The position numbers and the translations under genes were made by a program. Below the pieces are notes generated by a model. It saw only the letters and a list, made by a program, of their open reading frames with translations. It was not told the origin of the DNA and ran no database searches. A DNA stretch of 31,759 bases from a virus. The stretch is from the UHGV virus genome UHGV-0134350, one strand, 5' to 3'. Positions 14,956-26,157 of this stretch are shown here, piece by piece; position 1 is the first letter of the stretch; each line of letters opens with the position of its first letter.

Positions 14956-15705
14956 TTAACCGGCGGTTTTTACCGCCTTTGGTGGACGCCCGCGCTTTGC
15001 CGCCGGTTTGTTGGCAGGTTTGCGCGTGCGCGGTTTAGTCGTTTTACGGGGCGCGGCCTCTGGCTTTGGCTTCAATGCCCGTTCCAGTCGCTCAATCTCC
15101 TTGCGCACACCGGCATTGCGGTCGAGCTGCATCGCGCGCTGAAACTGCGCCAGCGCCTCTGCATTCATACCGGCATCACGCAGGGTCAGGCCTGTCACCT
15201 TATGCAGACGGGCGCGCACCATATCGGGAACGTCAGCGCCGTCGGTCAGGTCGATAGTGGTCTGCAGCCAGGAAAGGTCGACAGACTCACCGGCATCGCG
15301 CAGGCGCTGTGCAGCAAGCGCCACTTCCTCAACCAGCATGTAAGGTGTTGTGCGGTGGTGGTCAGAGGTGAGGCCGTATTTCAGCGCGTACGGGGCAATT
15401 TCCAGCGCGCCAGCGATATCACCGGCATCGAGACGCCACAGCATGACGGTCATGACAATGTCATCCTGCGCACCACGGCCATCAGCCAGCACACCGGCGA
15501 CCCACGGCGCATAGAACGGCAGCAGCTCGCGCTTTTTCTCGGCTTTACGTTCGTTTGAACGGATGTTTTTTAACGTGCGGCGGTCATCGGCCAGCTTAAC
15601 CAGCATCTGCTCGTAGGCAGTGGCATGCCGCAGCGGGTTGTTTTCCCGCTGCGCGGTTTCAATGGCCGAGACCCGCATCATGTGACGCTGTGCGGGGCTC
15701 GTCAT
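14956..15705 (-). CDS. M: terminase endonuclease (small) subunit gpM
   Basis: 249-aa ORF beginning MTSPAQRHMMRVSA with basic C-terminal tail, P2 M-like. Confidence 0.9.
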   Translation of the reverse strand: MTSPAQRHMMRVSAIETAQRENNPLRHATAYEQMLVKLADDRRTLKNIRSNERKAEKKRELLPFYAPWVAGVLADGRGAQDDIVMTVMLWRLDAGDIAGALEIAPYALKYGLTSDHHRTTPYMLVEEVALAAQRLRDAGESVDLSWLQTTIDLTDGADVPDMVRARLHKVTGLTLRDAGMNAEALAQFQRAMQLDRNAGVRKEIERLERALKPKPEAAPRKTTKPRTRKPANKPAAKRGRPPKAVKTAG

Positions 15706-17872: not shown

Positions 17873-19642
17873 ATGACCATTTCCACAGATACAACCTTGT
17901 TGCATGACCCGCGACGGCAGGCATCGCTGCTTTACTGGCAGGGTTTTTCCGTGCCACAGATTGCCGAAATGCTGCAGGTCAAGCGCCCGACCGTGCAGAG
18001 CTGGAAGCAGCGCGACGGCTGGGACGGCATCGCGCCGATTTCCCGCGTTGAAAGCAGCCTTGAGGCTAGGCTGATTCAGCTCATCGCCAAGCCGCAAAAG
18101 ACAGGGGGTGATTTCAAAGAGATTGACCTGCTCGGACGGCAGATTGAACGGTTGGCGCGAGTCAACCGCTACAGCCAGACCGGCAACGAAGCCGACCTTA
18201 ACCCCAACGTCGCCAACCGCAACAAAGGGGAGCGCAAAAAGCCGAAAAAGAATTTTTTCAGCGACGAGTCTATCGATAAACTAGAGGAATTATTTTTCGA
18301 CCAGTCTTTCGAGTACCAGTTGCAGTGGTACCGCGCAGGACTGGAGCACCGTATTCGTGACATTCTCAAATCCCGCCAGATTGGCGCGACATTCTATTTC
18401 TCCCGCGAGGCACTGCTGCGCGCACTCAAAACCGGCCATAACCAGATATTTTTATCAGCCAGTAAAACGCAGGCTTACGTGTTCCGCGAATACATCATCC
18501 AGTTTGCGCGACTGGTCGACGTTGACCTGACTGGCGACCCGATTGTCATCGGTAACAACGGCGCAAAACTGATTTTTCTCGGTACCAATTCCAACACCGC
18601 GCAGAGCCATAACGGCGATCTGTATGTCGATGAAATATTCTGGATCCCGAATTTTCAGAAACTGCGCAAAGTCGCCTCGGGCATGGCCTCGCAAAAGCAC
18701 CTGCGCTCGACCTATTTTTCGACACCTTCCACGCTGGCGCACGGCGCTTACCCCTTCTGGTCTGGCGAGCTGTTCAACAAGGGGCGCAGCCGGATTGCCG
18801 ACCGCATCGAAATCGACATCAGTCACAGCGCGCTCGCCGGTGGCCAGCTCTGCGACGATGGCCAGTGGCGGCAGATTGTCACCATTGAGGACGCCCTTGC
18901 GGGTGGCTGCACCCTGTTCGACCTCGACCAGCTCAAACGCGAAAACAGTGATGAGGACTTTAAGAACCTGTTTATGTGCGAGTTTGTCGACGATAAAGCG
19001 TCGGTATTCCCGTTCGAGGAGCTGCAGCGCTGCATGGTCGATGTGATGGAGGAATGGGAGGACTTTGCCCCGTTCGCCGACCATCCGTTCGGCTCTCGTC
19101 CTGTCTGGATTGGCTACGACCCGTCACACACCGGCGACAGTGCCGGGTGCGTCGTGCTCGCGCCGCCGGTGGTCTCTGGTGGCAAGTTCCGCATGCTGGA
19201 GCGCCACCAGTGGAAGGGCATGGATTTTGCAGCACAGGCAGAGGGCATCCGCAAGCTGACCGAGAAATACAACGTTGAATACATCGGCATTGACGCAACC
19301 GGCCTCGGTCTCGGCGTGTTCCAGCTGGTGCGCTCATTTTACCCGGCGGCACGCGGCATCCGTTACACACCTGAAATGAAAACCGCAATGGTACTCAAGG
19401 CGAAAGACACCATTCGCCGTGGCTGTCTGGAGTACGACGCCGGAGCAACCGACGTCACGCAGTCGTTTATGTCCATCCGCAAAACCATGACTAGCAGCGG
19501 GCGCAGCGCCACCTATGAGGCCAGCCGCACCGAGGAAGCCAGCCACGCCGATATCGCATGGGCGACCATGCACGCCCTGTTAAACGAACCGCTTTCTGCC
19601 GGTAGCGGCATGCAGCCTAAATCTATTCTGGAGTTCAACTAA
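17873..19642 (+). CDS. P: terminase ATPase (large) subunit gpP
   Basis: 589-aa ORF, P2 P-like, divergent from O. Confidence 0.9.
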   Translation: MTISTDTTLLHDPRRQASLLYWQGFSVPQIAEMLQVKRPTVQSWKQRDGWDGIAPISRVESSLEARLIQLIAKPQKTGGDFKEIDLLGRQIERLARVNRYSQTGNEADLNPNVANRNKGERKKPKKNFFSDESIDKLEELFFDQSFEYQLQWYRAGLEHRIRDILKSRQIGATFYFSREALLRALKTGHNQIFLSASKTQAYVFREYIIQFARLVDVDLTGDPIVIGNNGAKLIFLGTNSNTAQSHNGDLYVDEIFWIPNFQKLRKVASGMASQKHLRSTYFSTPSTLAHGAYPFWSGELFNKGRSRIADRIEIDISHSALAGGQLCDDGQWRQIVTIEDALAGGCTLFDLDQLKRENSDEDFKNLFMCEFVDDKASVFPFEELQRCMVDVMEEWEDFAPFADHPFGSRPVWIGYDPSHTGDSAGCVVLAPPVVSGGKFRMLERHQWKGMDFAAQAEGIRKLTEKYNVEYIGIDATGLGLGVFQLVRSFYPAARGIRYTPEMKTAMVLKAKDTIRRGCLEYDAGATDVTQSFMSIRKTMTSSGRSATYEASRTEEASHADIAWATMHALLNEPLSAGSGMQPKSILEFN

Positions 19643-19643
19643 A

Positions 19644-20690
19644 ATGGGTAAACAAAAATCCCGTAAAGCCAACGCACAAAAGGCCAGCAAACCACAACAA
19701 CTGACCGCCAGCGCACCGCCAAAAACGACAGCGTTCACCTTCGGCGAGCCGGTGCCGGTACTCGATAAGCGCGACATTCTGGATTACGTCGAATGCATCA
19801 GTAACGGCAAATGGTACGAGCCGCCGGTCAGCTTCTCAGGGCTGGCAAAGAGCCTGCGCTCTGCCGTGCATCACAGCTCGCCAATTTATGTTAAGCGTAA
19901 CGTGCTCGCGAGCACCTACATTCCGCACCCGTTGTTATCCCGTCAGGATTTCAGCCGCTTTGCGCTCGATTATCTGGTGTTCGGTAACGCCTTTCTTGAG
20001 CAGCGCCACAGCGTCACCGGCCAGTTAATCAAACTGCTGGCCTCGCCAGCCAAATACACCCGACGCGGAGTCGACGATTCGATTTTCTGGTTTGTGGAAA
20101 ACTTCACCCAGCCGCACGAGTTCGCGCCTGATACCGTGTTTCACCTGCTGGAGCCCGACATTAATCAGGAGATTTACGGTCTGCCGGAATATCTCAGCGC
20201 GCTTAATTCCGCTTGGCTGAATGAATCCGCGACGCTGTTCCGCCGCAAGTATTATCAGAACGGCGCGCACGCAGGCTACATCATGTATGTGACTGACCCG
20301 GCGCAAAGTGCGACCGACGTCGAATCGCTGCGCGAGGCGATGCGTAACTCGAAGGGACTCGGCAACTTTAAGAACCTGTTTTTCTACGCCCCCGGCGGAA
20401 AACCGGACGGCATCAAAATCGTGCCACTGAGCGAGGTCGCCACAAAGGATGACTTTTTCAACATTAAGAAAGCCAGCGCCGCCGACCTGATGGACGCGCA
20501 CCGCGTACCGTTCCAGCTCATGGGCGGCAAGCCCGAGAATATCGGTTCACTCGGTGACGTTGAGAAGGTGGCAAAGGTATTTGTGCGCAATGAGCTGTCG
20601 CCGCTACAGGACAGGTTCAGGGAGGTAAACGACTGGCTCGGCATGGAGGTCATCAGGTTCAAAGAGTACACCCTCGATAATCCGGAATAA
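19644..20690 (+). CDS. Q: portal protein gpQ
   Basis: 348-aa ORF, P2 Q-like, immediately downstream of P and reading toward cos. Confidence 0.9.
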   Translation: MGKQKSRKANAQKASKPQQLTASAPPKTTAFTFGEPVPVLDKRDILDYVECISNGKWYEPPVSFSGLAKSLRSAVHHSSPIYVKRNVLASTYIPHPLLSRQDFSRFALDYLVFGNAFLEQRHSVTGQLIKLLASPAKYTRRGVDDSIFWFVENFTQPHEFAPDTVFHLLEPDINQEIYGLPEYLSALNSAWLNESATLFRRKYYQNGAHAGYIMYVTDPAQSATDVESLREAMRNSKGLGNFKNLFFYAPGGKPDGIKIVPLSEVATKDDFFNIKKASAADLMDAHRVPFQLMGGKPENIGSLGDVEKVAKVFVRNELSPLQDRFREVNDWLGMEVIRFKEYTLDNPE

Positions 20691-20720
20691 TCACCACTCT
20701 AGCCGCCAGCATGGCGGCTC

Positions 20721-21446
20721 TCAATCGTGAGTGGATATTTGCGAAACAAACTCTTTAACTCCATCTCGTTCAAGTATTTTACTGTCATGGATATACTTTA
20801 CGATATCCCACTCGTAGTATGTACAAGCCATTGCAACTAAAGATATTATTTTTATGTCAGTTAAGTTAACTAATGTTTCATAATAATCTTCCCGTTCAAC
20901 CCCGCAATTATCTATCAACTTCACAATCAAATAAAAGCGACGCACCACTGAAAAAATGCAATCATTAGCATCCACTTCACTTAACCACTTTGTTATTACC
21001 TCTTTTTTTACCTTGGCTTTAACTAAAATTACAATATTATCTTCAAGATAAGTTACGGCTGCACCACTTGTAAATTCTTCGACCACCCCGTCAGTTTGTC
21101 CATCAATATCACCAACTTGAACACAAAACCTTTCAAAGTTAGAATCCTGACATTCAACCAAATGGAAAAATCTCACTTCAAATTTTTTATACTCTTCTAA
21201 AGATTCTTGCCTTTTTACTTCATCGATCAGGCTGGAATTAGCCTCCCTTTGAAGTTTTATTGAATTTATAAGGAGGTAAATTGTAATAAATGAAAGTATA
21301 GGGTTGACGACACCACCCAAATAATCACCAAACTGCGCCCAAACATCAGTCTTGCTGGATAAATGTCCGTTTACTCCGAAGTTGAAGTAATACAAGGCGC
21401 ACACAGCTACAATCACGCCAGCCGAAGACAGCAACACCTTTCTCAT
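20721..21446 (-). CDS. cargo protein with two N-terminal transmembrane helices (candidate membrane effector)
   Basis: 241-aa ORF in markedly AT-rich DNA; hydrophobic helices VLLSSAGVIVAVCALYYF and LGGVVNPILSFITIYLLI; ATG overlaps the stop of the upstream gene (ATGA). Confidence 0.75.
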   Translation of the reverse strand: MRKVLLSSAGVIVAVCALYYFNFGVNGHLSSKTDVWAQFGDYLGGVVNPILSFITIYLLINSIKLQREANSSLIDEVKRQESLEEYKKFEVRFFHLVECQDSNFERFCVQVGDIDGQTDGVVEEFTSGAAVTYLEDNIVILVKAKVKKEVITKWLSEVDANDCIFSVVRRFYLIVKLIDNCGVEREDYYETLVNLTDIKIISLVAMACTYYEWDIVKYIHDSKILERDGVKEFVSQISTHD

Positions 21447-22261
21447 ACAGTTTCAACCATACGGATTAGATATTTCACCACATCACCACTTTTTACTACA
21501 ACTTTGCTAACAGTAAGTTTTAGATATGTGTAGTTATCTTGCCTGCCATTATTATTGTGTAAATTTAATGAGACCAATCTTTTTTGAGCGGCGGGTATAG
21601 CCTTTAAAGGCATGTAAAAACCAAAGGCTACTGTATCATCTTCACCTTCGATAACTAACCTACCATTTCCAGTTCTCGCATTAAATCGAGTAATAACTGC
21701 GTTAATATTAACTTGACCGGGCTTTATTTTTGATTGTGTCAAGTTTGTAGCAGTCATTGTGTCTAACTTTGCTATTCTTTGTTTTCCAGCAGGTTTTTTA
21801 TAGTTAAGTTCAACATCAAAGTTTTTTTGAAGATTTATCCTATGCATCCTTACCAAAGGTTGTCTGATACGATCAATAAGTTCATCTTCAATTTCCTCAA
21901 GCTCCTCAATAATTCCTGCAGCTTTTGGAGATAGCTCCTTAGTTTCCAGATATAGAGATTCAGAAATAAAATACCCCATGACTTCCGAGAACACAGAACG
22001 GGTCATTTTTTTTAATTCGGCAGCTAATTCCGGCTCATTAACAATCAAGTCGAAGTTTTGACCATAAGAACTTTTAAAGCTTTGTTTGAGAACCGCTCGC
22101 GCAGGGTTAACATGAGTGCGGCGCTTAATAATTTTTTTTCTGAGTATTGCCTCTGCTAGTATGCATGTCACCTCAGCCGTTCCAGAGAGGGTATCAAGGC
22201 CATACTCCATATCAACTTCTTGATCACCACTTTTGATGACAACGTCATAGCTAACTTTCAT
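21443..22261 (-). CDS. cargo protein of unknown function (candidate sensor partner)
   Basis: 272 aa from the ATG (MKVSYDVV...) preceded by AAGGA; the track start is a GTG two codons upstream; AT-rich; no motif I recognise. Confidence 0.75.
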   Translation of the reverse strand: MKVSYDVVIKSGDQEVDMEYGLDTLSGTAEVTCILAEAILRKKIIKRRTHVNPARAVLKQSFKSSYGQNFDLIVNEPELAAELKKMTRSVFSEVMGYFISESLYLETKELSPKAAGIIEELEEIEDELIDRIRQPLVRMHRINLQKNFDVELNYKKPAGKQRIAKLDTMTATNLTQSKIKPGQVNINAVITRFNARTGNGRLVIEGEDDTVAFGFYMPLKAIPAAQKRLVSLNLHNNNGRQDNYTYLKLTVSKVVVKSGDVVKYLIRMVETV

Positions 22262-22369
22262 CGGCACATCCTTGATTTAGTAACCTTTGGTTATTATTTT
22301 TCATCTTCTACTCATTGACACCGATTTTTTACACCAAAAATATCAAATTGCAAGTGTGTGCTGCGCGCA

Positions 22370-22388
22370 ATGCTTTCCCCGCCACGCC
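22370..22388. other. cos site (19-nt cohesive end, 186/P2 type)
   Basis: Reverse complement of 22370-22388 is GGCGTGGCGGGGAAAGCAT, matching the P2 cohesive end GGCGAGGCGGGGAAAGCAC (recalled from memory) at 17 of 19 positions. Confidence 0.7.
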
Positions 22389-22545
22389 TGCCCGCTTTAC
22401 GGGGCGGTTTTAATGCAGTTGCATGAACACTCGGGATCCGCGCCAGCTCTGGCGGCGCACGGTCAGAACGGGCAACCCCTGCGAATGCAAAAGCATGCAC
22501 CTGTTGCATGCACGGCTAAAAACGGGGAAATCGCGGAAAAATGGC

Positions 22546-22573
22546 ATAAAAAACCGGCATTCACGGTGCCGGT
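22546..22573 (-). terminator. rho-independent terminator ending the leftward early/tum transcript before cos
   Basis: Stem ACCGGCA / TGCCGGT with 7-nt loop, followed on the minus strand by TTTTTTAT. Confidence 0.6.
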
Positions 22574-22902
22574 TTGGGGCTGGTTTTGTCGCGATTACTG
22601 GGCGTGTAATGCGCCAATAACACTATTGAGGCACATGCTGGCAAAAATCAGCAGAAAAATCGTCGTCCACCGATTTTCATAAACGAGAGATAACATATTG
22701 ATATAGATCCTTTTATTTGTGCATTCTAATGTGGTTTAACAGGTGTTTGATAACGACCGTAAGCTCATCTTTACTGGCTTGCTCGACCATTTTTTCGGTG
22801 TAGCTTTCCACCTCACGAGAACTCAGGTCGTTATTTGAAGCCATTACGGTCAGCTTTTTTGCCCAATCGGCAAACGGGTCTATCGATGAAAGGGAATTAT
22901 GC

Positions 22903-23334
22903 ATGTCCAAAAACCTCGAATTATTTAACCAGCAGACGGCGGAAATTTTTGCGGTGTTATGGGATAACTTCCCGGTGCCGCAGGTCATCACCTACGAAAA
23001 ATTTAACGCCGTGCTACCTGATGACTACTTTGACCAACTTAACTCACCGGAAATGAAAGCACTGAATCAGTTGCGTAGTGTGGTTGAGGGTACATTCACT
23101 TTTCTCAGTGAAAACGGCTACATCCAATATGAAACAGACCATCAGACTTATTTTCGGGATGTGCGCCTGACCGAGAAAGCACTCGCCGTGCTCAACAAAA
23201 AGCCCGAGGCACTCGGCGGTAGTGAAACGATGGGCGATAAGATTATCAGTGCGGTGAAAGACGGGACACCCGGAGTTATTGCAGGTGCGGTGACAAACCT
23301 GCTTTCACTCGGTGTCAATCTGGTAACCAACTAA
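22903..23334 (+). CDS. hypothetical protein with hydrophobic Gly-rich C-terminal tail
   Basis: 143-aa ORF with AGGGA 7 nt upstream of the ATG; convergent with the dinI-like gene; sits where old/tin lie in P2. Confidence 0.55.
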   Translation: MSKNLELFNQQTAEIFAVLWDNFPVPQVITYEKFNAVLPDDYFDQLNSPEMKALNQLRSVVEGTFTFLSENGYIQYETDHQTYFRDVRLTEKALAVLNKKPEALGGSETMGDKIISAVKDGTPGVIAGAVTNLLSLGVNLVTN

Positions 23335-23401: not shown

Positions 23402-23635
23402 TTAATGCAGCCAGCTATCGTCCTCCCATACCTGCTGCATGATTTCCATTACTCGTTTTTTATCTTCGTCCAGTTTCAAACCGCTTAGTTCAACGCCATT
23501 AGCGGAGCCCTTGCGAATTCGGATAGCAGTCTTTGGGTAAATAGGTTGAAGATTGCGGTACAGTTCAGCCTCAAGTGCATCCAATGTTGCCTGACTAATT
23601 TTTTGCTCTTTATCCAACGTGATATTGATTCTCAT
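23402..23635 (-). CDS. dinI: DinI-family protein (Tum C-terminal-like)
   Basis: 77-aa ORF MRINITLDK...DALEAEL...EDKKRVMEIMQQVWEDDSW aligns along its length with E. coli DinI. Confidence 0.85.
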   Translation of the reverse strand: MRINITLDKEQKISQATLDALEAELYRNLQPIYPKTAIRIRKGSANGVELSGLKLDEDKKRVMEIMQQVWEDDSWLH

Positions 23636-23934: not shown

Positions 23935-26157
23935 TTACTCATGTATTGGTTTTGATTCTTCAGCCATCGCCGCAACACGATTAAGGATTTTCCGAGCTTT
24001 AGCCTCATGCGATGGTGCTGCGGAAAATATTTCTCCTTTGGCCGTTCCGCGTAGCCATTTACCATCAAAACAACTTTTACCACCGGCCATCAGGTGCAGG
24101 GCTTCGCCCCGGCTGATATTAATGCCGGTTGTCAGATGTATCTCATCGATAGTTTTAGCTATAGCTGCGTTTTGCTCATCCGTTCCGTGGATGAATTTTC
24201 GCCGTGCTGCTGGCTTTTGCTTCCTGAGTCGGTTGGTCAATTCTCGTCTTTCACGCCGACTCAGTGGTTTTGTTAAATCCAGTATCGGTGGATCGCTTTC
24301 GCTTCCCGTACAGTTATTGACAGAACTCCGAGGGACGGCTTTGCCGTCCTGAAGGTCAACGGCCAAATCAACAGCACGCTTCGGAACAATCTTCCACTGA
24401 GTGAGCCGGGTTAAAATCGGGCTTCCTGCACCTATGGAGGAATCGTAGACCCCCTTAATACATACCGTTTCCTCACCGTACTGATTAAGCTCGGTACGCG
24501 GTTCATACAGTGTGCGCACCTGTAAATCATCGCGACGGACAAACGGCCCACCCTGAGCATTAACATAACCAGCCCAGTCACCAGCGTCGGCGGCATCATG
24601 GACGGCGGCAAACTCAACGCTCAGACCGTGCGCGGTTTCGGTATCAGCGAGGCGACGCAACTCACGGTAAACCGTCACCGGCGCACCACCAATAAACTGA
24701 AACTGACGGATGTGCCAGCGCGCAGCCCATGCTGAAACGGCGGGGGCTGTCTCTTTCAGCAGCTCACCGCTTTCATCATCGGTTTCACCATCGAGAGCAT
24801 AACCGTCGATATTTTTTGAAATGTATTTAGCAACATAGCCGGTTGCGCTGCCTTTCTCCGGGTCAATGGACTCCGCGTGGAAACGTGCTTTTTGGGATTT
24901 ATCGCTTTTCAGTTCGTGGCGGTCTTCTTTCCATGCGTATTTACGGACGATGGAGCGAACATATTCAACATCTTCCGGCAGCATGAACATCAGCATGTGC
25001 CAGTGTGGAGTGCCGTCGTGATGGGGCTCGGCGACACGAATACCGAAAATACGGACATCTTCCCGATGTAGTTTGGCACGGATACGCGCCCAGATACCGG
25101 TTAGATAGTTTTGCGTGTCAGCCGGGCTGGCACCGCTCCATTTGCTGTTACGGTAACCGGCTTTAGTCGTGGCGTGATATTTTGACGGCGCGGTTAGAGT
25201 GTAAAACTCACCGACATAACCGAGCTCATTACAGATGTTTTCAAACCCACGAATGCGGGTCATGAGCTCACAGCGGCGAATCGCAGGGTTAGCAACTGAG
25301 CCATCATATTTTTCAATTAGGCTGATACGGTTGCCGTCTTCGTCTTCGAGATCCAGACCTTTGAGAAATTCACGAGTGCGGCGCTTTTGTTCACGCCAGT
25401 CAGTCACGCAGTTTTTACTCGCGTAAGTGTTTTTTTTCTTACTGACGTTGCCGACTGCAATTTGCAGGTGTTCGCGCCACGTAGCTGCTACACGGCGCAA
25501 ACGACCGCGCCACCACCCATCGTTAAACATTTTGGCGATAGCCGGTGCGATTTCATCCGCACCGACATATTTTTTTTCAACCCGCTCCCAATGTGGTGGG
25601 ATAACGTTGAATTGGAGGGAAATAAAGCCAGCACGAATATACCAGGTGTACAGCGTTTTAAGCTCGCCGAATCCGTGGTCATTAATGTTGGCAAGTTCAC
25701 CACGAATGAAATTAGCAATATCAGCGGCCAACAGGTCAACATCAGCGCGCGACATGTCCGGGAGACGGTTATATCGGGCGACCATATTAACCATGCGTGA
25801 CGACAGATATTGCATTTGCTGAGTATCAAAATGACTTCCAAAAACAGCGGTTGATACCTTGCTGTTGATACCAGCGCATTCGTATTTTTTTGCGACCAGT
25901 TCAAGACGCGGCAATGCCTTTTTGCAGAAGCTGATTAAAAATGCATTGGCTCGTTGACTACCCTGATTTTGTTCCAGCACCGCAGCAGTGCGATAAACAT
26001 CTAACCGCACGCAGTCGGGCTGGAGAGAAAGCACCTTTTTTGCATGCAGCAAAGCCGCGAACATACGGTCGCGGCGATGCTGTTGCTCATAAGTAAGGTA
26101 TGGGCTGGAGATTGCCGACCGTGGGACGTTCCACGGATAAGCGAATTGAACAGCCAA
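23935..26157 (-). CDS. A: replication initiation endonuclease gpA (rolling-circle initiator)
   Basis: 740-aa ORF, P2 A-like, contains the active-site region YVAKYISK. Confidence 0.9.
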   Translation of the reverse strand: MAVQFAYPWNVPRSAISSPYLTYEQQHRRDRMFAALLHAKKVLSLQPDCVRLDVYRTAAVLEQNQGSQRANAFLISFCKKALPRLELVAKKYECAGINSKVSTAVFGSHFDTQQMQYLSSRMVNMVARYNRLPDMSRADVDLLAADIANFIRGELANINDHGFGELKTLYTWYIRAGFISLQFNVIPPHWERVEKKYVGADEIAPAIAKMFNDGWWRGRLRRVAATWREHLQIAVGNVSKKKNTYASKNCVTDWREQKRRTREFLKGLDLEDEDGNRISLIEKYDGSVANPAIRRCELMTRIRGFENICNELGYVGEFYTLTAPSKYHATTKAGYRNSKWSGASPADTQNYLTGIWARIRAKLHREDVRIFGIRVAEPHHDGTPHWHMLMFMLPEDVEYVRSIVRKYAWKEDRHELKSDKSQKARFHAESIDPEKGSATGYVAKYISKNIDGYALDGETDDESGELLKETAPAVSAWAARWHIRQFQFIGGAPVTVYRELRRLADTETAHGLSVEFAAVHDAADAGDWAGYVNAQGGPFVRRDDLQVRTLYEPRTELNQYGEETVCIKGVYDSSIGAGSPILTRLTQWKIVPKRAVDLAVDLQDGKAVPRSSVNNCTGSESDPPILDLTKPLSRRERRELTNRLRKQKPAARRKFIHGTDEQNAAIAKTIDEIHLTTGINISRGEALHLMAGGKSCFDGKWLRGTAKGEIFSAAPSHEAKARKILNRVAAMAEESKPIHE

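What the first reader, a model, noticed from the sequence alone, without database searches (positions are those of the whole stretch)
22370..22520. cos is 186/P2-type and is followed by repeated GCATGCA palindromic motifs
The 19-nt cohesive-end sequence is recognisable, with two differences from the P2 version as I recall it. Within about 150 bp toward the early side are ATGCAgtTGCAT (22413-22424) and two GCATGCA copies 13 bp apart (22493-22499 and 22506-22512), plus a CGCCAG/CTGGCG hairpin. These are candidate terminase-recognition (cosB-like) elements. The cargo operon sits on the other side of cos, so its promoter is at the extreme end of the virion DNA.
Basis: partly seen in the sequence, partly recalled or inferred. 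Interest (0 to 1): 0.4.

Follow-up and report, generated by a model that had tools for sequence, protein, structure and literature searches.

The report
186-type cos site with phased ATGCA repeats
This is the ordinary DNA-packaging (cos) site of a 186/P2-like E. coli prophage, and the "GCATGCA" motifs beside it belong to a set of ATGCA repeats held at fixed distances from the cut site across the P2 phage family and its P4 satellites, so they are probably where the packaging enzyme docks.

Summary
Bases 22370-22388 (minus strand) are identical to the annotated 19-nt cohesive end of phages 186 and PSP3, and differ from P2 at two positions. The window is an E. coli P2/186-like prophage: TerL, portal, two unknown cargo genes, cos, then gpA.

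The interpretation needs refining. The repeated unit is the pentamer ATGCA, not the palindrome GCATGCA. It sits at +25, +97, +107 and +120 from the cut (22413, 22485, 22495, 22508).

I collected 104 distinct cos flanks using only the cos sequence as the search pattern. ATGCA is at +25 in 100, at +96/97 in 85 and at +106/107 in 77. The DNA between these positions is unrelated among lineages. P2, 186, PSP3, Ralstonia RSA1 and 16 of 17 P4-like satellites share this layout. Other lineages keep the geometry (about 72 bp, then 10-bp steps) with GTGCA or CTGCR instead.

Homology to other phages begins 7-10 bp left of cos, and in several records it ends just after the third repeat. The CGCCAG/CTGGCG repeat is lineage-specific.

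Best reading: a one-sided terminase-recognition array. Binding is not shown. The cos itself is known biology, so interest is modest.

The parts
22363..22369 (.). Left conserved heptamer GCGCGCA (-7 to -1). It is the left limit of the conserved cos module, and cargo DNA begins immediately to its left.
   Evidence: It is conserved in P2, 186, PSP3 and 613R3, and in P4 with one change. It shows high information content in 61 spacer-distinct flanks. Homology of other phage records to the window starts at 22360-22363.
22370..22388 (-). 19-nt cohesive-end sequence GGCGTGGCGGGGAAAGCAT (cos nicking region). By analogy with 186, the nicks fall between 22389|22388 on the minus strand and 22369|22370 on the plus strand.
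   Evidence: Exact and unique match. Identical to the annotated cos of 186 and PSP3. The right end of the 186 record aligns to window 22389.
22389..22412 (+). Right half of the conserved core: TGCCCGCTTTACGGGGCGGTTTTA, an imperfect GC hairpin followed by a T-run.
   Evidence: Near-invariant across 61 spacer-distinct flanks. The core PWM scores 106.6 of a possible 113.9. A terminator-like hairpin is reported at 22388-22407.
22413..22424 (+). Proximal element ATGCAgtTGCAT: ATGCA at +25 and inverted TGCAT at +32.
   Evidence: ATGCA is at +25 in 100 of 104 distinct flanks and TGCAT at +32 in 64 of 104. By my comparison, P2-P4 near-identity ends with this ATGCA.
22441..22454 (.). GC-rich inverted repeat CGCCAG-ct-CTGGCG in the spacer. 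It is lineage-specific.
   Evidence: Present at about +52 in 186-like and P4-like flanks, with some changes on both arms, but absent from P2 and many others. Inverted-repeat lengths here are no greater than in a control region.
22485..22489 (+).
   Evidence: ATGCA at +96/97 in 85 of 104 flanks. ATGCA-N5-ATGCA is exact in 43 of 63 spacer-distinct flanks and starts at +96 to +98 in 40 of them.
22495..22499 (+). Distal ATGCA site 2 (+107).
   Evidence: ATGCA at +106/107 in 77 of 104 flanks. It is 10 bp from site 1 in 43 of 52 spacer-distinct flanks with at least two distal copies.
22505..22512 (+). Distal site 3, TGCATGCA (ATGCA at +120, TGCAT at +117).
   Evidence: A third ATGCA lies at +116 to +120 in about 67 of 104 flanks, 9-13 bp after site 2. 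Homology of several phage records ends at 22512-22519. 613R3 diverges about 5 bp after it.
22493..22511 (-). Hairpin formed by sites 2 and 3 (GCATGCA-acagg-TGCATGC) followed by UUUUGCAUU. Possibly a weak back-up terminator.
   Evidence: Terminator-like hit. The fold is -11.6 kcal/mol with z = -0.43, not exceptional.
22545..22575 (-). Intrinsic terminator with a 9-bp stem and a U6 run. It is the homologue of 186 t95b and ends early-side transcription before cos.
   Evidence: Fold, inverted repeat I4, and 186 annotation of t95b at the homologous place.
22261..22369 (-). Leader and promoter region of the two-gene cargo operon, within the first 109 bp of the left end of virion DNA.
   Evidence: ORFs 21443-22267 and 20721-21446 on the minus strand. 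One promoter-like site at 22321-22293 on the minus strand. No near match in the phage collection left of 22360.
14956..15705 (-). Small terminase subunit (gpM type), a candidate reader of the array.
   Evidence: Pfam PF05944 and phrog_74. The C-terminal tail contains KRGRPPK, which resembles an AT-hook.
17873..19642 (+). Large terminase subunit (gpP type) with an N-terminal helix-turn-helix domain, a candidate reader of the array.
   Evidence: Pfam Terminase_6N, Terminase_6C and Terminase_5, plus HTH_23 and HTH_28 on residues 12-69.

Best explanation
Window 22363-22512 is the complete packaging signal of a 186-like prophage. Terminase makes staggered nicks 19 bp apart at 22370-22388. Recognition is one-sided. 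On the early-gene side lie the conserved core, which ends in a T-run and a proximal ATGCA (+25, paired with an inverted TGCAT at +32). Exactly 72 bp further on are three directly repeated ATGCA pentamers, about one helical turn apart (+97, +107, +120). I infer that phage-encoded terminase subunits read the pentamers on one face of the helix. The candidates are the small subunit gpM and the N-terminal helix-turn-helix of the large subunit gpP. The sequence-free spacer of fixed length would be bent or wrapped so that proximal and distal sites are held by one complex that positions the nuclease on cos. The first base of the pentamer (A, G or C in different lineages) would set which phage's terminase, and therefore which satellites, can use the site. 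What is shown: the sequence, its identity with 186 cos, the positional conservation, the module boundaries and the presence of terminase genes. What is inferred: protein binding, which subunit binds, DNA bending, and the role in specificity.
For: The 19-mer is identical to the annotated 186 and PSP3 cos. The site lies between the portal gene and gpA, with gpP and gpM present. Flanks were retrieved by the cos 17-mer only, so there was no selection for the repeats. In those flanks ATGCA is at +25 in 100 of 104, +96/97 in 85 and +106/107 in 77. At least two copies fall in +92 to +122 in 52 of 63 spacer-distinct flanks, against 0 of 63 in three control stretches. The spacer carries almost no information. 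P4, which per PMC9122126 shares no other homologous region with P2 and is packaged by P2 terminase, has ATGCA at +25, +97, +107 and +120. Among 17 distinct P4-like flanks, each distal site is present in 16. Ralstonia RSA1 has +25, +96, +106. phiCTX has CTGCA at +24 and CTGCR at +95 and +105. Chuche-like E. coli prophages have GTGCA with spacings of 72, 10 and 10 bp, found in 45-52 of 84 distinct flanks. Both ATGCA-type and GTGCA-type elements live in E. coli, which argues for a phage-encoded reader rather than a host one. Natural recombination boundaries hug the module: homology starts at 22360-22363 and in several records ends at 22512-22519. In 67 distinct Chuche-like loci the variable DNA starts right after the third GTGCA. 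Longer cos flanks raised P4-cosmid transduction by about 10^4-fold in PMC9594776.
Against: No binding, cleavage or packaging experiment was available here. I could not read the one paper that mapped the functional limits of P2 and P4 cos (Ziermann and Calendar 1990). Site 3 is less conserved: it is exact in 22 of the 43 flanks that carry the site 1-2 pair. About 20% of flanks lack an exact copy at site 1 or 2. The 'spacer-distinct' filter uses ungapped identity, so some representatives may still be related through indels. Sites 2 and 3 also form a hairpin in 186-like and P4-like lineages, so part of their conservation there could serve transcription termination. Which subunit reads the sites is unknown. 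The differences in the TerL recognition helix between ATGCA and GTGCA lineages rest on five sequences and are confounded by phylogeny.
Confidence: 0.7

Rival explanations
1. The array is a termination or last-packaged-end element (like lambda cosQ) rather than an initiation site (like cosB). Terminase would meet it at the end of translocation and need it for the final cut or for holding the end at the portal.
For: The array lies on the side of cos opposite the terminase and head genes, the reverse of lambda, where cosB sits between cosN and Nu1 (gene order). All sites end up in the last 125 bp of the right end of virion DNA, by analogy with the 186 record.
Against: From my own knowledge, not checked here: P2-family phages package monomeric circles, where a separate termination cut is not obviously needed. 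Multiple helically phased repeats are typical of initiation and recognition sites. I found no accessible source for the direction of packaging.
Confidence: 0.2
2. The GCATGCA pair is mainly a transcription terminator or insulator hairpin that stops early-side transcripts from crossing cos into the cargo operon. The pentamer repeats would be a by-product.
For: The scan reports a terminator-like hairpin at 22511-22493 on the minus strand with a U-rich tail. In P4 the homologous sites 2 and 3 form an 8-bp stem flanked by A and T runs just after psu.
Against: The fold is not better than shuffles (z = -0.43), and a stronger terminator already lies upstream at 22545-22575. P2 keeps the three pentamers with no inverted repeat. 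The best-conserved pair, sites 1 and 2, is a direct repeat that cannot form the stem. The GTGCA lineage keeps direct repeats only.
Confidence: 0.07
3. The pentamers are binding or bending sites for a host nucleoid protein, playing the role IHF plays in lambda cosB, and are not read by terminase.
For: The fixed 72-bp spacing and 10-bp phasing suit an architectural protein.
Against: No IHF consensus, even allowing one mismatch, lies in 22389-22520. Prophages of the same host, E. coli, use either ATGCA or GTGCA according to phage lineage, which points to a phage-encoded reader.
Confidence: 0.03

Closest known systems
cos site and right-end region of coliphage 186 (U32222), and of PSP3
   Same: The 19-nt cohesive end is identical. 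The right flank is 84% identical, with ATGCA at +25, +97, +107 and +120, TGCAT at +32 and +117, the same CGCCAGctCTGGCG repeat and a t95b-type terminator.
   Different: Left of the GCGCGCA heptamer the window carries a 1.6-kb two-gene cargo instead of the short cos-to-tW interval of 186. The early-side genes beyond the terminator also differ.
55-bp cos core shared by P2 and P4 (Ziermann and Calendar 1990, as cited in PMC3931495, PMC5694545, PMC9594776, PMC9122126)
   Same: The core is present at 22363-22417. By my comparison of P2 and P4, the near-identical stretch is -7 to +29 and ends with the proximal ATGCA.
   Different: The three distal ATGCA copies lie outside that 55 bp, yet occupy identical offsets in P2 and P4. 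I found no accessible text that describes them and could not read the 1990 paper.
Lambda cosB (R3-I1-R2-R1 sites bound by gpNu1, with IHF)
   Same: Several short repeats flank the nicking site on one side only, at a fixed distance.
   Different: The units are pentamers rather than 16-bp R sites. There is no IHF consensus. The array lies on the side away from the terminase genes. Binding and packaging direction are untested.
Repeats annotated around cos in Pseudomonas phage phiCTX (record NC_003278, 'region3; containing R4,R5,R6 repeats')
   Same: This P2-family phage has annotated repeats spanning cos. I find CTGCA at +24 and CTGCG/CTGCA at +95 and +105, the same geometry.
   Different: The pentamer is CTGCR rather than ATGCA, there is an extra copy at +79, and the cohesive end is 21 nt as annotated.
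cos-adjacent insertion hotspot of P2-like phages and P4 satellites (Rousset et al. 2022, PMC9122126; Dodd and Egan 1996; the ctx gene of phiCTX, as cited in PMC5694545)
   Same: Cargo is inserted between cos and the portal gene, starting a few bases from the cohesive end.
   Different: The two cargo proteins here match only PHROG families of unknown function and no PADLOC defence model at a convincing score.

Membership tests
P2/186-type cos site (Peduoviridae, 19-nt 5' cohesive ends) | 19-nt GC-rich cohesive-end sequence of the GGCGNGGCGGGGAAAGCAY type | tested here: met
   Exact match to the 186 and PSP3 cos at 22370-22388 on the minus strand. It is unique in the window.
P2/186-type cos site (Peduoviridae, 19-nt 5' cohesive ends) | Conserved core flanking the cohesive end (about 55 bp, -7 to +29) | tested here: met
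   A PWM built from 61 spacer-distinct family flanks scores 106.6 of 113.9 at 22363. See also the alignment with 186, P2, P4 and 613R3.
P2/186-type cos site (Peduoviridae, 19-nt 5' cohesive ends) | Position between the portal gene (Q/W) and the replication/early region, with gpP and gpM terminase genes in the same element | tested here: met
   TerL 17873-19642, portal 19644-20690, gpA 23935-26157, TerS 14956-15705.
P2/186-type cos site (Peduoviridae, 19-nt 5' cohesive ends) | Staggered cleavage in vivo giving 19-nt 5' overhangs in virion DNA | not testable with these tools
   Needs virion DNA end mapping. Here it is inferred only from identity with the 186 cos.
Terminase-recognition array of the lambda cosB kind | Several repeated short sites on one side of the nicking site at conserved spacing | tested here: met
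   ATGCA at +25, +97, +107 and +120 in the window, at the modal family positions.
Terminase-recognition array of the lambda cosB kind | Sequence-specific binding by the small terminase subunit | not testable with these tools
   No solved relatives of gpM or gpP were found by sequence. No binding data are accessible.
Terminase-recognition array of the lambda cosB kind | IHF site between the repeats | tested here: not met
   No WATCAANNNNTTR match, allowing one mismatch, between 22389 and 22520.
Terminase-recognition array of the lambda cosB kind | Location on the first-packaged side of the nick site, next to the small-terminase gene | tested here: inconclusive
   The array is on the side away from the terminase genes. 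Packaging direction was not found in accessible literature.
Intrinsic (rho-independent) terminator, for the GCATGCA pair | Stable GC-rich stem followed directly by a U-run | tested here: inconclusive
   A 7-bp stem at -11.6 kcal/mol with z = -0.43 and tail UUUUGCAUU. A better terminator lies at 22545-22575.

The most novel reading that the evidence does not exclude
The P2-family packaging signal is larger than the textbook 55-bp core. It would be a bipartite, helically phased array: a T-run plus NTGCA at about +25, a 72-bp spacer of fixed length and free sequence, then NTGCA repeated at 10-bp steps. This array is shared by helper phages and their P4-like satellites in Enterobacteria, Ralstonia, Burkholderia and Pseudomonas. 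The first base of the pentamer (A, G or C) would act as a specificity code that decides which terminase, and so which helper-satellite pairs, can package a given DNA. If this has not been described, it gives a testable rule for helper-satellite compatibility and for designing efficient P2/P4 cosmids.
Probability: 0.3. Interest if true: 0.55.

Novelty: new member of a known kind. Interest (0 to 1): 0.3.

Why it matters
For this window, the result fixes the virion ends and shows that the prophage keeps an intact packaging signal. It also shows that the unknown two-gene cargo sits within about 110 bp of the left DNA end, in the known cos-adjacent hotspot. More generally, the fixed-offset pentamer array would explain three things. 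Natural gene exchange stops exactly 7-10 bp left of cos and just after the third repeat. P4 satellites retain about 125 bp of otherwise unrelated DNA. Longer cos fragments make much better P2/P4 cosmids. It also points to concrete mutations for testing how a structurally uncharacterised terminase type recognises its DNA.

Tried and rejected
- **Rfam:** a search of 22000-23200 at E <= 1 found nothing.
- **IHF consensus:** none in the array region.
- **GC inverted repeat as a general element:** rejected. It is present only in 186-like and P4-like flanks, and inverted-repeat lengths do not exceed a control region.
- **GCATGCA pair as a strong terminator:** not supported, since the fold z-score is -0.43.
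- **Whole-window enrichment of GCATGCA:** none.
- **Core PWM on six distant Peduoviridae loci:** it found a credible site only in phiE202. The Chuche and Kp4861-1 sites were found by a repeat search instead. Nothing convincing was found for KS14, PaBSM or Aeromonas A051.
- **HP1:** it shows a different repeat (TTTCCGTG), but its genome layout differs and I did not pursue it.
- **The search for related loci with a portal alignment:** it returned only relatives at 67% identity or more, so it did not widen the sampling.
- **Literature:** I could not obtain Ziermann and Calendar 1990, the Christie and Calendar P2 review under the PMC id I guessed from memory, or Chattoraj and Inman 1974. Searches for P2-family 'cosB', cos-region repeats or packaging direction returned nothing useful. 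The cosmid papers give no sequence limits.
- **PDB:** sequence searches for gpM and gpP found nothing.
- **Not attempted:** structure prediction, or a systematic test of covariation between terminase residues and pentamer type.

Full report
**Context.** The window is a P2/186-like prophage, inverted relative to the standard P2 map.
- The large terminase gene (17873-19642, +) has Terminase_6N and 6C domains and an N-terminal gpP-type helix-turn-helix. The portal gene (19644-20690, +) follows it.
- Next come two minus-strand ORFs of unknown function, 20721-21446 and 21443-22267. They match only phrog_8999 and phrog_13337.
- Then come the region in question, a few small genes, and the replication gene gpA (23935-26157, -).
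- The small terminase gene (gpM type, PF05944) is at 14956-15705 (-).
- The stretch 20650-22650 is 100% identical in at least ten complete E. coli chromosomes. Of 5,426 genomes, 14 carry at least 80% of it.

**Checking the observation.**
- GGCGTGGCGGGGAAAGCAT matches 22370-22388 on the minus strand exactly. It is the only match in the window allowing up to three mismatches.
- The 186 record annotates the same 19 bases as 'cos; cohesive end'. The PSP3 record calls its cos 'identical to 186 cos'.
- P2 has GGCGAGGCGGGGAAAGCAC, which is two differences.
- The right end of the linear 186 record aligns to window 22389, immediately after the 19-mer.
- ATGCAgtTGCAT (22413-22424), the two GCATGCA copies (22493-22499 and 22506-22512) and CGCCAG/CTGGCG (22441-22446 and 22449-22454) are all present.
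- GCATGCA is not over-represented in the window as a whole: 9 found against 9.8 expected.
- Four ATGCA within 100 bp is the densest cluster in the window. Only 2% of Markov simulations reach it.

**What the repeats are.** The right ends of 186, P2 and P4 show the same pentamer, ATGCA (in the window's orientation), at the same distances from the cut.
- 186, P4 and the window have it at +25, +97, +107 and +120. P2 has +25, +97, +107 and +119. PSP3 has +25, +97, +107 and +116.
- In the window these are 22413, 22485, 22495 and 22508, with inverted TGCAT at 22420 and 22505.
- P2 has the pentamers with no palindromic extension (ttaATGCAatc, tcATGCAcc, gaATGCAac). The palindrome is therefore not the conserved feature.

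**Test on a wide sample.** I scanned IMG/VR with the cos 17-mer alone (GCTTTCCCCGCCNCGCC), so the repeats played no part in retrieval.
- After removing chance hits and duplicates, 104 distinct right flanks remained.
- ATGCA starts at +25 in 100 of them, at +96/97 in 85, at +106/107 in 77, and at +116 to +120 in about 67.
- I then kept only flanks whose spacer (+37 to +95) is under 60% identical without gaps, which left 63.
- In 52 of those 63, at least two ATGCA start within +92 to +122. The figure is 0 of 63 in each of three control stretches.
- ATGCA-N5-ATGCA is exact in 43 of the 63, and starts at +96 to +98 in 40. The third copy follows 9-13 bp later and is less conserved, being exact in 22 of those 43.
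- Column information is near maximal from -7 to about +36, then almost zero through the spacer.
- A caveat: the ungapped filter may count some indel-related spacers as distinct.

- I classified loci by tblastn with portal, gpA and Psu.
- Among 17 distinct P4-like flanks, the proximal site is present in 17 and each distal site in 16.
- The P2-P4 near-identity that I can see runs from -7 to +29, which is 55 bp, and ends with the proximal ATGCA. This matches the '55-bp core' that later papers attribute to Ziermann and Calendar 1990.
- The distal copies lie outside that core, yet P2 and P4 place them identically.

**Other lineages.**
- Ralstonia phage RSA1 has ATGCA at +25, +96, +106 and +125.
- Burkholderia phiE202 has a proximal ATGCA, and its distal array starts 81 bp later, one extra helical turn.
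- phiCTX has CTGCA at +24 and CTGCG/CTGCA at +95 and +105. Its record annotates repeats spanning cos.
- A very common E. coli prophage lineage (phage Chuche and relatives) has T-run-GTGCA, then GTGCA three times, with spacings of 72, 10 and 10 bp.
- A second IMG/VR scan, using that lineage's core sequence, gave GTGCA at +18, +90, +100 and +110 in 45-52 of 84 distinct flanks. Several of those have unrelated spacers.
- The geometry is therefore conserved while the pentamer changes with the phage lineage. Both the A-type and the G-type occur in E. coli, which argues that a phage protein reads the motif, not a host protein.

**Module boundaries.**
- Other phage records become homologous to the window only from 22360-22363 onward.
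- Several of them stop being homologous at 22512-22519, just after site 3.
- Phage vB_EcoM-613R3 has a 100% identical portal protein but different cargo. It matches the window from the GCGCGCA heptamer to about 5 bp beyond site 3 and not outside that range.
- In 67 distinct Chuche-like loci the sequence is constant up to the third GTGCA and diverges immediately after it.
- Gene exchange in the cos-adjacent hotspot therefore respects a unit of about 150 bp. This is what one expects if the whole unit is needed for packaging.
- In PMC9594776, replacing a short packaging signal with one that has longer cos flanks raised transduction about 10^4-fold.

**The other elements.**
- The CGCCAG-ct-CTGGCG repeat recurs at about +52 in 186-like flanks, and as GCGCC-N6-GGCGC in P4-like flanks, with a few changes on both arms. 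It is absent from P2 and many others, and inverted repeats in that stretch are no longer than in a control region. I treat it as lineage-specific and optional.
- Sites 2 and 3 can pair as a 7-bp stem followed by UUUUGCAUU on the minus strand. The fold is no better than shuffles (z = -0.43).
- A clear terminator, the homologue of 186 t95b, lies upstream at 22545-22575. A back-up terminator role is possible but cannot explain conservation of the direct repeats in P2 or in the GTGCA lineage.
- No Rfam family matches, and no IHF consensus lies in the array.

**Mechanism.** I propose that the terminase of this phage recognises the pentamers on one face of the DNA.
- The 10-bp steps, and the 72-bp gap (81 bp in phiE202), fit whole helical turns.
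- The sequence-free spacer would be bent or wrapped so that one complex holds both the proximal and distal sites and places the nuclease on the 19-bp nicking region.
- Candidate readers are gpM, whose C-terminal tail contains an AT-hook-like KRGRPPK, and the N-terminal helix-turn-helix of gpP.
- In five sequences, the putative recognition helix of gpP differs between ATGCA-type and GTGCA-type phages: RPTVQSW, PATVASW and RATVEAW against SNTVYSW and PNTIYAW. This is a lead only, and it is confounded by phylogeny.
- Neither subunit has a solved relative detectable by sequence.

**An open point.** It is unclear whether 'cosB-like' is the right analogy.
- In lambda, cosB lies on the first-packaged side, next to the small-terminase gene.
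- Here the array is on the side of cos away from the terminase genes.
- I could not find the packaging direction of P2-family phages in the accessible literature.
- If the array-bearing right end is packaged last, the closer analogue is lambda cosQ.

**The cargo remark.** By analogy with 186, the left duplex end of virion DNA is 22369. The likely cargo start codon, an ATG at 22261 preceded by AAGGA, is 109 bp away.
- One promoter-like site lies at 22321-22293 on the minus strand.
- The early-side terminator, and possibly the hairpin, shield the operon from read-through across cos.
- Insertion of foreign genes between cos and the portal gene is well documented (PMC9122126; Dodd and Egan 1996 and phiCTX ctx, both as cited in PMC5694545).

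**Verdict.** The cos site is a known kind of element, and here it is an exact 186-type copy. The repeats are real, conserved and probably functional. I could not tell whether the distal array has already been described in the 1990 mapping paper. Interest is modest for this window, and somewhat higher for the family-wide pattern.

Noticed in passing
window 22595-22696 (-): A 33-codon ORF encodes a hydrophobic peptide (MLSLVYENRWTTIFLLIFASMCLNSVIGALHAQ). AAGGA lies upstream and the t95b-like terminator (22545-22575) follows it. It could be a small membrane peptide or toxin on the SOS/early side of cos. The related phage Midge annotates hypothetical proteins here.
   Followed up: partly
window 20721-22267 (-): The two-gene cargo between portal and cos matches only PHROGs of unknown function (phrog_8999, phrog_13337). 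It has no Pfam match, and only a weak N-terminal hit to ZorB/MotB (E = 0.002). No near match exists in the phage collection, but it is 100% identical in at least ten E. coli chromosomes.
   Followed up: partly
window 14956-15705 (-), C-terminus: The small terminase ends in a lysine/proline-rich basic tail containing KRGRPPK, which resembles an AT-hook. The conserved core and site 1 are each flanked by T or A runs (GGTTTTAATGCA, ATGCAAAA).
   Followed up: no
L218-L297 and L299 onward (Chuche-like E. coli prophages): In this very common lineage the variable cargo region begins immediately after the third GTGCA repeat. All 80 loci returned have a 100% identical portal, yet they give 67 distinct downstream sequences. 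This is a second cos-adjacent hotspot with a sharply defined edge.
   Followed up: partly
L353, about 16 bp after GTCACCTGCGCGCAG: In one contig the proximal GTGCA is joined directly to the last two distal repeats, so about 82 bp (the spacer plus the first distal repeat) is missing. It looks as if recombination occurred between the repeats. It may be a defective cos.
   Followed up: no
window 22374-22381 and 22523-22530: A perfect 8-nt inverted repeat, TTTCCCCG (inside cos) and CGGGGAAA, spaced 141 nt apart. CGGG(G)AAA recurs at +135 to +137 in only 9 of 104 flanks, all 186-like. It is probably lineage-specific or chance.
   Followed up: partly
window 23402-23635 (-): A DinI-like protein (phrog_189, RecA filament binding) is encoded on the early side, near unknown ORFs 22903-23334 (+) and 22713-22991 (-). 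This is the region where 186 has its SOS operon (tum, orf97).
   Followed up: no
L004 (P2 33424-33457): The annotated start points of the P2 old-tin transcript lie only about 27-31 bp beyond the third ATGCA. The old promoter therefore abuts or overlaps the packaging array.
   Followed up: no
L130 (HP1 right end): Haemophilus phage HP1 has TTTCCGTG(G) three times near its end, at about +7, +38 and +101 in the reverse-complemented right end. It may be an analogous proximal-plus-distal arrangement with an unrelated motif.
   Followed up: no
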